Shown here piece after piece: positions 3,775 to 57,200 of a DNA stretch of 63,959 nt (its first letter is position 1; each line of letters opens with the position of its first letter). The translations under genes were made by a program, and so were the position numbers. A model generated the notes under the pieces. The model was not told the DNA's origin, made no database searches, and saw only the letters and a program-made list of their open reading frames with translations. Source of the DNA: Rhynchobatus australiae (lineage: Eukaryota); contig JAUZTB010000062.1 of assembly GCA_034780895.1 (NCBI GenBank), forward strand, positions 18,286,821-18,350,779. The letters are read 5' to 3'.

Positions 3775-3812
3775 TTGTCCTGATGAAGGGTCTCGGCCCA
3801 AAATGTCAACTG
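3775..3812 (+). ncRNA. Degenerate minimal type I hammerhead ribozyme motif
   Basis: CUGAUGA (3780-3786), stem II GGG/CCC (3788-3790 with 3797-3799), AAAA in place of GAAA (3800-3803), GUC cleavage triplet (3805-3807). The 3'-side deviations from the window-derived consensus are CpG-type transitions. Confidence 0.65.
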
Positions 3813-3911
3813 TTCATTTCCCTCCATAGATGCTACCTGACCTGCTGAGTTCCTCCAGCACTTTTTGTGTATTGCTCCAGATTCCAGCATCTACAGAATT
3901 TCTTGTGTCTC
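3775..3911 (+). mobile_element. Penelope-like element terminal repeat (pLTR) solo copy
   Basis: GTCCTGATGAAGGGTCTCGGCCCAAAATGTCAACTG...GATGCTACCTGACCTGCTGAGTTCCTCCAGCA...GCTCCAGATTCCAGCATCT. A related sequence lies downstream of the GIY-YIG ORF end at 44090-44180. Confidence 0.8.
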
Positions 3912-3919
3912 TGGGTGTC

Positions 3920-4115
3920 TACTCAATCTATTCCTCTTACAATCTTATAAATTTCTATCAGTCTCTGGCATTCCAGAGAAAACAACCCAAGTTTGTCCAA
4001 TCTCTCCTTATCGCATACACCGCCTAATCCAGGCAGCATCCTGGTAAACCTCTTCTGCACCCTCTCCAAAGCCCCCACATCCTTCCTATAATGGGGCGAG
4101 CAGAATTGAATGTGA
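3920..4115 (-). mobile_element. CR1 LINE (HER1-like) ORF2 3' fragment
   Basis: CSPHYRKDVGALERVQKRFTRMLPGL...ERLDKLGLFSLE is the typical CR1 ORF2 C-terminus. Confidence 0.9.
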
Positions 4116-4744
4116 TCCTCCTGATGCATCCACACGTGTTTTAGAAAGCTGCATTTTGCAAAGGTGTTTCTTTTTAAGCGTGCCAAAAAATGTCCACTTT
4201 TCAAAAAATTTTCATCTAACAGACTCTTAGAAACAAAAGGCAATTTTTGAGCAGCCCCTACAATTTTCCTTTGCAAGTTTTTGTTTTTTAATTAACTTAG
4301 CATCCTTTTCTAGTGAATTATTCATAGCATGATAGCACTGAAAATGTTTCACATGCCCACAATGTGATATTTGCTGTAACAGTAATGAATGTCTCTCTGA
4401 AGGCAAGTAAATGTAGAATGACTCCAAAAAGTCTGAAAGGCTAAACAGAGAGGGCCCGTTTACTCCATGTCTACAAATCGACATCAATGACAAGGCAGAG
4501 GTTTGTAATGTGTCTGGCAGTCTGCATGTTGGTGACTAAATTTACAAAGTTGGCTTTCAGCTCCCACATCCTGGATTTGTGGCAGTTCTGATGGTGAAAT
4601 GATTGGCATTCGTTGTCATTATATTGTGAAATTGACAGCAGAAGTTGGATTTCCCTGCATGAAAAGGATAATGTGGCAATCACACAGTTGTCAACATTTC
4701 AGACCTCCACCGAAGACCATTCTGTTTTGCAACCTGCTCCTCAG

Positions 4745-5085
4745 CAATGGAATCTGCAGCCTAACGGCATGAACATTGAATTCTCCCACTTTAAGTAATC
4801 CCCACACCCCTTCCTCACAACCCTGCCCCCCCCGCCCTGCGTCTTCCATTTCCTGGCCTATCTCTCTTTTTTCTATCCGCTTTTTTTTTCCTTTCTCTCC
4901 TCACCTTCGACCCATCCCCAGGTGGATCTGCTCTCCCCTCCTCCCCCGCACCTGCCTATCACCGTCTCTTACCTGCATCTACCTATCACCTTCCTGTGCC
5001 CACCCCGCCTCCCCTCTTTTGTCCACCTATCACTGCCCTGCTTTTCCCTCCTATATATATTGGGCTTCCCCTTTTCCTATCTTCT
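4745..5085 (+). mobile_element. Penelope-like element 3' end (GIY-YIG C-terminus and pyrimidine-rich 3' UTR)
   Basis: NLQPNGMNIEFSHFK* (stop at 4796-4798) matches the PLE endonuclease C-terminus also seen at 44534-44640. It is followed by a CpG-retaining C/T-rich UTR that runs into an N gap. Confidence 0.78.
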
Positions 5086-5185
5086 NNNNNNNNNNNNNNN
5101 NNNNNNNNNNNNNNNNNNNNNNNNNNNNNNNNNNNNNNNNNNNNNNNNNNNNNNNNNNNNNNNNNNNNNNNNNNNNNNNNNNNNN

Positions 5186-53710: not shown

Positions 53711-54289
53711 GTACCGGTGTATCTCCCTGAGTTCTGATACAAGATTCTCCTTAAAAGATATTTTCTCAGCAGCATGTAGCCTTGCCAGACATAGTGCAAC
53801 TCTTGTGGTAAGGATAGATTAGTACAGCTACAGATTTTCTGCCAGAGAAAGATAATGACTACATTGGGTCAGTACTTGCGTTTCTAGTAGTTCCCAGGGA
53901 CATTCAGTATGGTAAATTGGCCACAGGATCATAATGGGCTTCCTCCATACCTCTGCCAGAAGGATAACTAATTGATAACTAGAGTGAGCATTGACACAAA
54001 CAACTGGGAAATAGATGCCAGAACATCAGGATCTTTCGAGGTTGACTGTTCAGAAGGGCATTGGAAGAAGGGAGAAGAACAGAAAACTCAGCTGGATGAA
54101 AAGAGAGTCCAGAGAAAGCAGAGGACAGCAAACTTTGCACCTTGTCAGCCCACTGCCTTCGTCAGCTGCGAGTGCAGAAAAGACTGCTGTGCTGGTGTTG
54201 AGCTCCTGTGCCACCCTATTGTCAATAGCTTTGTTCTACTGCAAAATAAACTCACTCTATATTTTTTTAATTTCTCTGCAATTTCTCAG

Positions 54290-54436
54290 ACACAGAACCG
54301 TGGAAAACGAATGAAGGAAGGAGCGCACATCAACCGTTCACTGTTGGCACTTGGAAACTGCATCAACGCACTGAGTGAGAAGGGAGGGAATAAGTACGTC
54401 AATTACCGAGACAGCAAGCTGACACGGTTGCTGAAG
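54290..54436 (+). CDS. kif19: kif19 exon 8 (147 bp)
   Basis: atttctcag|[55 protein letters not shown]|gtatgc. Confidence 0.96.
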
Positions 54437-54859
54437 GTATGCACGTGCTCATGTGCAAATGGTGATGAGATTTATCTAATGAAATGCTTTCCCTTTGTGT
54501 TTGGGATTACTTTCAGATTTTCCTGGATCGATCTGACACTGCTCCAGGGTTACTGAATGAAAACTAATCTGTGACTAAGGATCATGTCTTAAATTTGGAT
54601 ATTTCTTAATCAAATAACATAAGTCTTGGATGNNNNNNNNNNNNNNNNNNNNNNNNNNNNNNNNNNNNNNNNNNNNNNNNNNNNNNNNNNNNNNNNNNNN
54701 NNNNNNNNNNNNNNNNNNNNNNNNNNNNNNNNTGAAGAATTTTTTATTTTTAATGTGACATTATCAGCCTTTTGAGACCTCTTGCCTTCAGGAAAATGCC
54801 ACACATAGGCAAGCAGCAGATTTCAGTTTCTCACATTGTTTCTTTCTATGTGATGGCAG

Positions 54860-54982
54860 GATTCATTGGGCGGGAACAGCAGGACGGTGATGATCGCTCA
54901 CATCAGCCCAGCCAGCAGCTCCTTTGAAGAATCACGAAATACTCTCACTTATGCAGACCGTGCCAAAAACATTAAAACCAGA
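54860..54982 (+). CDS. kif19: kif19 exon 9 (123 bp; end of motor domain)
   Basis: gatggcag|[47 protein letters not shown]|gtaaga. Not in the supplied ORF track. Confidence 0.96.
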
Positions 54983-57029
54983 GTAAGAACAAAGCGTCAA
55001 TAAAGCAATTTAAATTATTGTTAAGTCCTTACATATTAAGTCTTTTAAAGTTGCATATTAAATAATAACATGTGGATGGAGGAATATTGTGTTTTAATGT
55101 AGATTTATTGTTGGCACTTAAAATCTATAAGCTGCTCACACTCAATAACATTACCCAGACTTGATCCTAATACAATGCTGTTGTGATGAATTCTACTGCC
55201 AGTTAGTATTAATTCAGTTACTAGTTGGCATTGTGATGACTGTGGAGATGATGTCATCGTGACTGTGGTAACATGATGCTACCACAGTCATGAAATATAT
55301 TTAACATTAAAAAATATTTAATGATGAGTTTTTTTAGATACAGTAAGAGCTGAATCCACAATTAGAAGAGGATGAGATGTAAGCATGCCAGTGTTAGGCA
55401 TCAGAGTCACATCATTGGTGGTATTTCTGACTGAATCAGAGGGTATAAGCTGATTCCNNNNNNNNNNNNNNNNNNNNNNNNNNNNNNNNNNNNNNNNNNN
55501 NNNNNNNNNNNNNNNNNNNNNNNNNNNNNNNNNNNNNNNNNNNNNNNNNNNNNNNNNGACCCATGCTGTAATAAAGTAGACAACAACAGAACCAAGGAGC
55601 GTACAATTACTGCTTTATTGTTTAATGCTGGTGGGAGTGAGGGATACAGAGCAAGTGTAAACAGTGTAACCCCACCTCTGTACTGATCCCCACTCAAAGA
55701 TATACATGTTTGTGTCCTTCCTTTTATACTTAATCTAAAGATGCCTACGTGCGAAGTTGCACATACTTGGGCAGCTGATTAAAGCAAACTTTTAGCTAAA
55801 CAAGATATGCCTTAAGCACTCCCAAGCATCTACACATTTTGCAGTCATAACTATAGTCACACCATGGTTGAAGCAGTAACAGCCATACATTATTAACCCT
55901 TACATATCAGTTACTTTTACAAGACCAGCTCCCAGCTGATGAATGAGGCCCTGCACAGGTTCCCAGACTTGGTAGCTGTCAAAACTGTCATTTAAGTTCA
56001 ATGTTGTAAATGATTTTGAAGTTCACAAGCATTCAAGAAGTATTGAAAACAAGCTACTAAAGAGTTAAATTAAATTAAATTAAAACAAGTTGAATTCATT
56101 TGAACTGACTGAATTAAGTCAAATAGAAAGGTCCATTTATCATTCTTCTGGTAGCTGTTTCTTTTCATTCATTTCAATCAGAGTGTGATGCTTGCCACGG
56201 CTATCGCAGGCAGGTTCCTATTCTAGAGTTGGGAAATCTAAGGAAGACTAAACTACATCTTTGGACACCAAGAACAATCCAATAGCACAGCATAGTTTCC
56301 CTGGGGCCCATGGTGAATGGAAGGTTTCACCTTAGCCAAGTACTTGGGGTGAAGTGCTTAATACTTCNNNNNNNNNNNNNATCTGATTGGACTTGCCCAA
56401 TTACATTTCATTGTAAGGTTGAAGGAGGGCTACAATATCATAGACGACACATTATGAATGAGGCATGAAACCAACAGCCCATCTGTTCTCCCAATAGGTA
56501 TAACCGATCTCAAGGTCAAATTCAAAAAAGAGCAGTGGAGTACTCCCCAAGTCCCAAAATATCTGGCTGAACCAACACCAATAAAGATGATCAAGTTATA
56601 AATCACAATTTTTAATGGGACCTTGTTATGCATAAATTGGTGTCTGCTTCCCAATCCATCTAGCCTCCAAAGGTAGCTGACTGCTGCGGAATCACTCCTG
56701 GATTTTTGGTTGTGGAAGGAGCTCAATAAATTGAATACCTTCCTCAGTCCTTTACTTTCTTAATATCCATCTTGTTATTAGATGTTCATTTTCCAAAAAT
56801 AACATATCACATTTAGTTTCAATATTCCTAAGTCATTTTGTCACTTGAGTAAGTATTTAGACTGTTGAAGTGCAGCCTCATAGTAGAAGATATTAAGCAC
56901 ACAAGTCACATATGCAAAATTAGGAGCTATTACTCAGTTCTGTTGGTGAGATGACTGCATAAAATAGCAGTCAGTGGAATGTTCCTCTTTCTCTTCTACT
57001 GAAGTACTTGCCTGTTGATAATATGTAAC

Positions 57030-57200
57030 AACACATAGAGACGCAAAAGACTGCAGGTGCTGAAACCTTGGAGCAAAATAGAAACTGCTGGAGGAACTCG
57101 GGACTGATGCAGGGTCACAACCCAAAGCTCCAACTATCCCTTTGCCTCCACAGATGCTACTTGACCAGCTGAGTTCCACCAGAAGTTTGTTTTTTGCTTG
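57030..57200 (+). mobile_element. Penelope pLTR derivative (partial foldback)
   Basis: CTGCTGGAGGAACTC...CTGATGCAGGGTCACAACCCAAAG...CACAGATGCTACTTGACCAGCTGAGTTCCACCAG. Confidence 0.75.

What the first reader, a model, noticed from the sequence alone, without database searches (positions are those of the whole stretch)
3775..57140. Family of minimal hammerhead-ribozyme motifs carried by Penelope terminal repeats across the kif19 locus
Seen in sequence: at least 8 short repeats share one core. On the + strand: 3780 CTGATGA-AGGG-TCTCGG-CCC-AAAA-TGTC-AACTG; 24020 CTAATGA-AAGG-TCAGCAA-CTTT-GAAA-ATT; 25724 CAGATGA-AAGG-TTTCAA-CCA-GAAA-TGTC-AACTG; about 47910 ...TGA-AGCTCATTGATCT-GAAA-CATT; 57104 CTGATGC-AGGG-TCACAA-CCC-AAAG. 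On the - strand: 33473-33437 GTC-TTGATGC-AGGG-TCTCAA-CCC-AAAA-CGTT-GAC; 43002-42973 TTATGA-AGGG-TCTTCAA-CCC-GAAA-TGTA; weaker copies at 44150-44185 and 9230-9265. The CpG-corrected consensus is GTC-CUGAUGA-AGGG-loop-CCC-GAAA-C-GUC-GAC: stem I, CUGAUGA, stem II, GAAA and a GUC cleavage site, with almost no stem III. Established knowledge: Penelope-like elements carry such minimal type I hammerheads in their pLTRs, thought to work as dimers. Inference: this lineage has a large, probably unannotated, ribozyme-bearing non-autonomous family. Every copy here has a damaged core.
Basis: partly seen in the sequence, partly recalled or inferred. Interest (0 to 1): 0.8.

Follow-up and report, generated by a model that had tools for sequence, protein, structure and literature searches.

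The report
Decayed Penelope ribozyme repeats, cartilaginous fish
These repeats are decayed ends of Penelope-type jumping genes in a shark or ray genome; each once carried the tiny self-cutting RNA already known from such elements in other animals, and no copy here is still intact.

Summary
The window holds 13 loci of a ~135-nt repeat (17 segments with inverted arms); 9 keep a minimal type I hammerhead remnant, 0 of 9 with an intact core. Segments picked by their tail alone carry the motif upstream far above chance (6 of 16 versus 1.7% of background). One copy lies 350 nt behind a decayed RT/GIY-YIG reading frame matching shark and ray Penelope-like proteins; a zebra shark protein reads through into the same motif at the same distance. 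Four loci have an inverted arm; one has an 11-bp target duplication and a 33-nt one-sided tail, the known Penelope signature. Not supported: stem covariation (not significant), any Rfam hammerhead match, tandem retrozyme structure, a host function. 'Non-autonomous' and 'unannotated' stay unproven. Most copies are probably short by-products of Penelope reverse transcription. One lead: two loci share the same core change (A9 to C), so a subfamily may have spread with a damaged ribozyme. Verdict: new member of a known kind; modest interest.

The parts
3777..3911 (+). Copy A, subfamily S1: best-kept hammerhead (stem I 5' arm 3777-3779, core 3780-3786, stem II 3788-3799, GAAA box 3800-3803, would-be cut after 3807) plus full tail. 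One core change (G12 to A); this and the changes at 15.2 and 1.1 are at CpG sites.
   Evidence: (score 16 of 18; 0 of 4000 background windows)
4751..5085 (+). 3' fragment of a second Penelope-like element: last ~15 codons of the endonuclease domain, stop at 4796-4798, 287 nt of pyrimidine-rich 3' UTR, then an N gap (5086-5185) about where the hammerhead repeat would be expected
   Evidence: (E 6e-5 to 0.02 against shark and ray proteins)
9160..9264 (-). Copy B, subfamily S2; stem I GUU/AAC intact, core changes G8 to C and A13 to U, stem II broken
21139..21236 (+). Copy C, S2, tail only or hammerhead decayed beyond recognition; kif19 intron
24017..24112 (+). Copy D, S2; G5 to A and a 1-nt loss after the GAAA box; kif19 intron
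25645..25856 (+). Copy E, S1, hairpin insertion: 11-bp target-site duplication (25645-25655 and 25846-25856), inverted arm 25659-25719 that starts at the first base 3' of the cut site, forward copy 25724-25845 (core change U4 to A), 33-nt tail 25813-25845 on the right side only; kif19 intron
   Evidence: (an 11-nt direct repeat occurs in 0.07% of 1500 control flank pairs)
27043..27202 (-). Copy F, S2, hairpin insertion: forward copy 27140-27043 without the hammerhead 5' half, decayed inverted arm about 27138-27202
33381..33517 (-). Copy G, S1, hairpin insertion: forward copy 33473-33381 (C3 to U, A9 to C, G12 to A), inverted arm about 33474-33517 running into an N gap
42915..43005 (-). Copy H: S1-like stem II with intact GAAA box, S2-like tail with an 18-nt deletion; C3 and G5 changed
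44078..44186 (-). Copy I, S2: the terminal repeat of the decayed element at 44534-45071; G5 and G8 changed
44187..44533 (-). Pyrimidine-rich 3' UTR between the stop codon and the hammerhead of copy I (350 nt to C3)
44534..45071 (-). Decayed Penelope-like ORF: RT thumb region to the C-terminal end of the GIY-YIG endonuclease, with frameshifts, stops and an internal deletion of about 105 codons that removes the Zn-finger linker and the GIY-YIG core; an N gap (45073-45497) lies 5' of it
   Evidence: (E 3e-19 and 6e-11)
46938..47033 (-). Copy J, S2, begins about 4 nt 5' of the cut site, tail otherwise full
47903..47981 (+). Copy K, S2; GAAA box intact, first core box decayed, 3' truncated
57036..57200 (+). 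Copy L, S1, hairpin insertion: inverted arm about 57036-57101 carrying the ~35-nt tail on the left only, forward copy 57104-57200 (A9 to C, G12 to A, A15.1 to G, U16.1 to C)
60456..60530 (+). Copy M, S2, short remnant with an internal deletion
20489..61650 (+). Host gene context, kif19-like kinesin: coding exons seen near 20490-20690, 29130-29262, 39840-39960, 49200-49370, 54280-54436, 54857-54985 and on to about 61600; copies C to M lie in its introns (6 sense, 5 antisense); not part of the repeat
   Evidence: (best solved relative KIF19, E 2e-26)

Best explanation
These are dead, neutrally decaying 3' terminal repeats (pLTR plus tail) of endonuclease-bearing Penelope-like retrotransposons, probably Neptune clade, in a shark or ray genome. 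The active parent elements carried a minimal type I hammerhead about 350 nt behind the ORF: 3-bp stem I, CUGAUGA, a bulged A, 4-5-bp stem II, GAAA, a self-complementary ACGU in place of stem III, and a GUC or GUU cut site. Such a motif can cut only when two copies pair through the ACGU (established for other PLEs; inferred here), probably helped by the element's protein. The copies arose by target-primed reverse transcription that starts inside the tail at one of two sites about 33 nt apart; two priming events in opposite directions on one target give the hairpin insertions with a tail on one side only. Most copies are only ~100-135 nt long and start at the hammerhead. I infer that they come from priming in the 5' terminal repeat of a transcript that begins near the hammerhead, or from stalling there, mostly on uncleaved RNA. 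After insertion CpG decay hit G12, 15.2 and 1.1 first, and no copy can now fold a full core. Shown: repeat family, motif above chance, ORF linkage, inverted arms, tail, one TSD, broken cores. Inferred: clade, dimer cleavage by the parent, priming mechanism, origin of the short copies.
For: Motif enrichment 6 of 16 versus 1.7%. Anatomy matches the published consensus, including the extra base after A9, G10.1-C11.1 and the palindromic 15.2-16.2 pair. tblastn of named shark and ray RT+GIY-YIG proteins hits 45062-44540, E down to 3e-19. Stegostoma XP_059504218 runs past its ORF end and 360 nt later matches the translation of copy A's hammerhead at 9 of 12 residues (best of 3000 shuffles: 6), against 350 nt in the window; its codons allow an intact core and a 4-bp stem II. 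4 of 13 loci have an inverted arm, all four with unequal arms; E has a 33-nt and L a ~35-nt one-sided extension, as described for PLEs (PMC8557442; PMC11167929). No shared sequence 5' of the core among solo copies: 0 of 21 pairs at p<0.05. Hammerhead region not better kept than the tail in S1: 12 of 92 versus 39 of 204 differences, p=0.25.
Against: No Rfam hammerhead match at any copy, even at E<=10. Stem covariation not above shuffles (139 of 500 for pairing, 223 of 500 for covariation score). The plain majority of the four S1 copies has A at G12; G12 comes from E, H, D, I, K and the CpG argument. The S2 reconstruction failed (best score 11 elsewhere in the tail) because the alignment misregistered it. 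The zebra shark peptide allows at most 2 of 3 stem I pairs. Only 1 of 13 loci is joined to an ORF, and it is the older, more decayed subfamily; no S1 copy is directly linked to an ORF. Only 1 of 13 loci has a clear TSD. No genome-wide DNA set was available.
Confidence: 0.88

Rival explanations
1. The short copies, above all the hairpin ones, are a dedicated non-autonomous family with master copies of its own (SINE- or MITE-like) that borrows the Penelope enzyme. This can be true alongside the best explanation for part of the loci.
For: G and L share 5 sites against A and E among 92 columns, including A9 to C in the core, and have similar arm junctions; the other two splits have 3 and 0 sites. 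5' ends cluster at the hammerhead rather than spreading over a 3-kb element. Density is 1 locus per 4.5 kb.
Against: The arm junctions of E and F differ from those of G and L, as expected for independent insertions; the tail is on the right in E and F and on the left in G and L. Two of the five shared sites are C/T differences that CpG decay could give. The G-L grouping is not resolved in the tree. A shared change could also come from an autonomous subfamily. Two loci are too few.
Confidence: 0.35
2. The hammerhead reading is pattern-matching on a decayed repeat; the repeat is a Penelope end but the motif is chance.
For: 0 of 9 cores intact; no Rfam match; no significant covariation.
Against: Tail-selected enrichment P<5e-6; the three departures of copy A from a complete motif all lie at CpG sites; same position relative to the ORF end in a zebra shark element; hammerheads are reported in the terminal repeats of all canonical PLE clades.
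Confidence: 0.04
3. The copies are host-adopted intronic ribozymes that cut or regulate the kif19 pre-mRNA, like the conserved intronic hammerheads of amniotes.
For: 11 of 13 loci lie within kif19 introns; copies D and E are 1.7 kb apart on the sense strand.
Against: All cores broken; 6 sense versus 5 antisense; hammerhead not better conserved than tail (p=0.25); no stem III, so a partner is needed and none is closer than 1.2 kb.
Confidence: 0.02

Closest known systems
Minimal hammerheads (min-HHR) in pLTRs of metazoan Penelope-like elements (Cervera and De la Pena 2014, PMC4209133)
   Same: Type I, no stem III, CUGANGA plus one extra base, G10.1-C11.1, GAAA, palindromic 15.2-16.2, short stem I; mostly dispersed single motifs from truncated elements, some in opposite-strand pairs; several families per genome.
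   Different: No cartilaginous fish among the 40 species of that paper's Fig. S3 or the 31 entries of Table S1; stem II is at the short end (4-5 bp); all copies here are dead.
Endonuclease-bearing Penelope-like elements, Neptune clade (as described in PMC8557442)
   Same: RT followed by C-terminal GIY-YIG; relatives carry a C-x4-C-x2-C linker; 5' truncation, inverted truncated copy at the 5' end, 30-40-nt tail on one side, assembly gaps at element ends.
   Different: The window's ORF remnant has lost the linker and the GIY-YIG core, so clade membership rests on relatives; no tandem pLTR-ORF-pLTR unit is present; no microsatellite targets seen.
PAc, Poseidon element of Anolis (PMC11167929)
   Same: Hammerhead in the pLTR, two element ends ~30-40 nt apart downstream of it; the far end of copy E lies 114 nt after the start of stem II (PAc primes at 111-118 nt, possibly coincidence).
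   Different: PAc is Poseidon clade and its ORF starts in stem II; here the frame that starts in the core closes after about 20 codons. PAc is active and tested in vitro.
Non-LTR retrozymes of animals (PMC7229834; bioRxiv 10.64898/2026.07.22.740005)
   Same: Short non-coding, type I hammerhead-bearing, derived from PLE terminal repeats; monomers are dispersed; the preprint reports them in one chondrichthyan.
   Different: Retrozymes are head-to-tail tandem repeats with complete hammerheads; here there is no tandem unit and the paired copies are inverted.

Membership tests
min-HHR of PLEs | Intact core boxes CUGANGA and GAAA...UH in an individual copy | tested here: not met
   0 hits with a strict descriptor on both strands; each of 9 copies has at least one core change
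min-HHR of PLEs | Core boxes present at family level with the right spacing | tested here: met
   S1 majority has 10 of 11 core bases; with copy H and a CpG rule 11 of 11; enrichment test
min-HHR of PLEs | Extra base between A9 and 10.1; G10.1-C11.1 pair | tested here: met
   Extra A in A, E, L, G, H, D, B; G-C in A, L, G, H; S2 copies close with A-U (D, B, K) or G-U (I), hand-registered
min-HHR of PLEs | No stem III; self-complementary 15.2-16.2 | tested here: met
   CG in G; TG in A, E, H and CA in I, K, the two CpG decay products
min-HHR of PLEs | Stems I and II supported by covariation | tested here: inconclusive
   60% of cells pair versus 21-51% for slid controls, but not above shuffles; 9 decayed copies. 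Two subfamily-level swaps (C-G to U-A in stem I, G-C to A-U in stem II) are suggestive only
min-HHR of PLEs | Self-cleavage as a dimer | not testable with these tools
   needs in vitro assay
Rfam hammerhead families (clan CL00010, incl. Hammerhead_1) | Match to the covariance model | tested here: not met
   no match at any copy at E<=10; the only hammerhead row, HH9 at 5960-6010, has 20 bits against a cut-off of 52 and is not a family member
EN+ Penelope-like element | ORF with RT and C-terminal GIY-YIG upstream of the repeat | tested here: met
   remnant at 45071-44534 matching RT+GIY-YIG proteins; the remnant itself has no Pfam hit
EN+ Penelope-like element | Inverted 5'-truncated copy and one-sided 30-40-nt tail | tested here: met
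   4 of 13 loci with inverted arms; tails of 33 nt (E) and ~35 nt (L)
EN+ Penelope-like element | Partial tandem with direct pLTRs on both sides of the ORF | tested here: inconclusive
   5' part of the element lies in or beyond an N gap; no upstream repeat found
Neptune clade | CX2-5CxxC linker between RT and EN; RT phylogeny | tested here: inconclusive
   linker present in relatives P0021, P0026, P0027, P0040 but deleted in the window; no tree with reference clades was built
Non-LTR retrozyme | Two or more head-to-tail units each with a complete hammerhead | tested here: not met
   no tandem array of the unit; nearest same-strand copies 1.2 and 1.7 kb apart
Non-LTR retrozyme | Expressed as circular RNA | not testable with these tools
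   no RNA data

The most novel reading that the evidence does not exclude
Shark and ray genomes hold a very dense fossil record (here 1 locus per 4.5 kb) of Penelope ends whose 5' junctions report what the ribozyme did in the germ line: most copies were made from uncleaved RNA, a minority start at the cut site (copy E's inverted arm does so exactly), and a hairpin subfamily with an inherited core change (A9 to C; copies G and L) spread without a working ribozyme. That would make the open question of what the Penelope hammerhead is for testable from genome sequence alone, and would argue that cleavage is dispensable for mobility in vivo.
Probability: 0.25. Interest if true: 0.55.

Novelty: new member of a known kind. 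Interest (0 to 1): 0.3.

Why it matters
It extends a known pairing, Penelope-like elements with minimal hammerheads, to sharks and rays, for which my eight literature searches found no described motif, although a 2026 preprint reports retrozymes and PLEs in one chondrichthyan. A specialist would expect it. Its use is as material: the role of the PLE hammerhead is called unclear in PMC8557442, and a very abundant, slowly decaying family with several subfamilies allows a genome-wide count of junctions at the cut site and of subfamilies with damaged cores. It also flags an annotation hazard: pieces of this element appear fused to predicted shark and ray proteins.

Tried and rejected
Rfam scan of the window and of 3700-3950: no hammerhead at any copy. 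Strict and relaxed descriptor scans: no intact motif; one unrelated chance hit each at 51811 and 40618. A covariance model from the 9 copies found only those 9, so no further hammerhead remnant of this family is in the window. Covariation counts: not significant. Pfam on four ORF remnant pieces: none; word-based search with the C-terminal piece: none; Atlas on the thumb piece: none; the HMMER library search succeeded. Word-based search with the antisense frame of copy A, meant to sample other genomes' copies: none. Tail stem-loop: folding not better than shuffles in 4 of 4 tails, z from -0.87 to 0.19. Shared sequence upstream of solo copies: none. TSDs: only E of 13. Idea that truncated copies start at the cut site: exact for E's inverted arm only; F and J start about 4 nt earlier, C is ambiguous, M keeps the box, and the junction in E can also be read as a deletion in a longer arm, so it stays a lead. 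The S2 divergence figure and the registers of D and K were dropped as misaligned (corrected by eye). Retrozyme and host-function readings rejected as above. Lunse et al. 2017 could not be read. No eukaryote DNA collection, Repbase or Dfam was available, and viral and metagenome contigs stayed unchecked.

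
Full report
Setting. The window is vertebrate DNA (GC 36%, CpG observed/expected 0.19, 33 N gaps). 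A kinesin gene runs on the + strand from at least 20489 to about 61600; one exon's best solved relative is KIF19 at E 2e-26. Repeat-derived protein matches are from rays and sharks (Hypanus, Hemitrygon, Rhinoraja, Rhincodon, Stegostoma, Chiloscyllium), so the host is most likely a cartilaginous fish (inference).

The observation. All quoted strings are present. Iterated nhmmer from 3775-3915 gives 13 loci (A-M) and 4 inverted arms, 1 locus per 4.5 kb of called sequence. Nine loci keep a hammerhead-like 5' part; none has an intact core. To avoid choosing copies for the motif, I built a profile from the tail alone: it found 16 segments, 6 of which score at least 14 of 18 on a hammerhead descriptor in the 60 nt upstream, against 1.7% of 6000 background windows; none of 200,000 resamplings matched this, and the profile finds nothing on the reversed window. 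The seed tail came from copy A. So the motif belongs to the family.

Anatomy. Copy A reads stem I arm, CUGAUGA, an extra A, a 4-pair stem II with a 4-nt loop, the GAAA box, two bases, UC, stem I arm. Its three departures from a complete motif (G12, 15.2, 1.1) are all G-to-A or C-to-T changes at CpG positions. This is the consensus published for PLE minimal hammerheads: extra base after A9, G10.1-C11.1, palindromic 15.2-16.2, no stem III (PMC4209133; I read parts 1, 2 and 4 of 4 of the text and parts 1-2 of 3 of the supplement). There are two subfamilies: S1 (A, E, G, L; 61-75% pairwise identity; GUC site) and an older S2 (B, C, D, F, I, J, K, M; 51-75%; GUU site, stem I GUU/AAC, stem II closed by A-U), with H in between; the S1 branch has 92/96 support, below the tool's bar. 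The two subfamily swaps look compensatory, but formal counts are not above shuffles (139 of 500 for pairing), and Rfam finds nothing.

Penelope origin. Copy I lies 350 nt behind the stop of a broken frame at 45071-44534 on the same strand. An HMMER search with its last 84 residues gave 16 hits; 10 were looked up and all are shark or ray records. One led to 25 longer proteins; of 7 named ones scanned, 5 carry GIY-YIG and 4 carry RT Pfam matches. These hit the window at 45062-44655 (E 3e-19) and 44647-44540 (E 6e-11); about 105 codons with the Zn-finger linker and the GIY-YIG core are deleted. The Stegostoma protein XP_059504218 runs on past the usual ORF end through a proline/serine-rich stretch and, 360 nt later, matches the translation of copy A's hammerhead at 9 of 12 residues; 3000 shuffles reach at most 6. 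Its codons allow an intact core and stem II but at most 2 stem I pairs. A second ORF end with its UTR lies at 4751-5085 and stops at a gap. Four loci have an inverted arm. In E the arms are 92% complementary over 60 nt, an 11-bp direct repeat flanks the insertion, and 33 nt are present on the right only; L has about 35 extra nt on the left only. An inverted truncated copy and a one-sided 30-40-nt tail are the described marks of PLE insertions (PMC8557442, passages), and the tail is the stretch between two internal priming sites in the Anolis element (PMC11167929, passages). The relatives' C-x4-C-x2-C linker points to the Neptune clade (inference; no reference tree).

How it works. In the parent element the motif should cut only as a dimer, weakly, perhaps with protein help: monomers were inactive and dimers weak in PMC4209133, the Anolis ribozyme needed the element's protein and its mutants still inserted in vitro, and a review reports dimer cleavage from Lunse et al. 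(PMC6765202, passages; the paper itself was not held). In the window the copies are fossils: the hammerhead region of S1 is not significantly better kept than the tail (12 of 92 versus 39 of 204, p=0.25), intronic copies are 6 sense and 5 antisense, and no partner lies within 1.2 kb. Why so many are short: the solo copies share nothing 5' of the core (0 of 21 pairs), so their 5' ends cluster at the hammerhead. Internal priming in the 5' terminal repeat of a transcript that starts near the hammerhead would give exactly such products from uncleaved RNA; this is my inference (about 0.5), with stalling at the structure and a separate non-autonomous family as alternatives.

Leads. G and L share A9 to C and four more sites against A and E (5 of 92 columns; the other splits have 3 and 0), which suggests an inherited damaged core. 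A9 changes are not discussed in the core-variation section of PMC3088659 that I read; that A9C impairs cleavage is my recollection of the hammerhead structure, not a result. E's inverted arm begins at the first base after the cut site, but F, J, C and M do not clearly do so, and a deletion in a longer arm explains E as well.

Novelty. Thousands of dispersed minimal hammerheads from truncated PLEs are known in coelacanth and Xenopus. No cartilaginous fish is in that paper's table or alignment; 'shark' does not occur in PMC7229834 or PMC8557442; eight searches (listings only, except the papers named) found no description of this family. But Penelope is listed among whale shark repeats (PMC8455134, passages), and bioRxiv 10.64898/2026.07.22.740005 (parts 1-3 of 5 and passages) reports retrozymes in one chondrichthyan; its supplements could not be seen and may hold this sequence. 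Repbase and Dfam were not available. I also saw passages of PMC6155905. Verdict: a real feature, a new member of a known kind, interest 0.3.

Noticed in passing
proteins P0001, P0002, P0004, P0007, P0026: RefSeq models of ray genes (VKORC1L1, ATP synthase C3, neuromedin-U receptor 1, LAMP3, DIPK1C) carry the end or most of this Penelope-like ORF fused to the host protein: exonisation or annotation error.
   Followed up: no
window 5086-5185, 33518-33617, 45073-45497: Three assembly gaps directly abut Penelope pieces, as expected for inverted and tandem insertions in short-read assemblies; further copies may be hidden in the 33 gaps.
   Followed up: partly
window 3808-3890 and other tails: The tail has a CUGAC followed by a pyrimidine run and an AG, which looks like a branch point and 3' splice site; Penelope repeats are known to hold an intron. 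Seen by eye only.
   Followed up: no
window 3758-3767: Just 5' of copy A a 10-nt stretch resembles part of the family's tail; chance or a trace of a second end.
   Followed up: no
window 47027-47055 (- strand): Upstream of copy J a short stretch resembles the reverse complement of the GAAA box region; J may be a fifth, more decayed hairpin insertion.
   Followed up: no
window 32651-33154 +: Reverse transcriptase remnant with RVT_1 and ALKBH8_N Pfam matches, a non-Penelope LINE fragment.
   Followed up: partly
window 431-752, 10648-10985, 23679-23999, 42357-42550, 46772-46830, 49624-49899: A second abundant dispersed repeat family in several copies on both strands; SINE-like by recollection, no tRNA gene found.
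   Followed up: no
window 4026-4088, 6484-6546, 13945-14343, 28446-28496, 39980-40477, 53655-53697: Further LINE-like remnants (CR1-like by recollection); no Pfam match in the pieces tested.
   Followed up: partly
window 5960-6010 +: Weak Rfam Hammerhead_HH9 row (20 bits, cut-off 52, E 2.5) next to a gap; no core boxes on reading, taken as chance.
   Followed up: yes
window 45498-45800 (- strand): Pyrimidine-rich sequence 5' of the gap in the decayed element has no protein match to the Penelope-like relatives; its origin is unexplained.
   Followed up: partly
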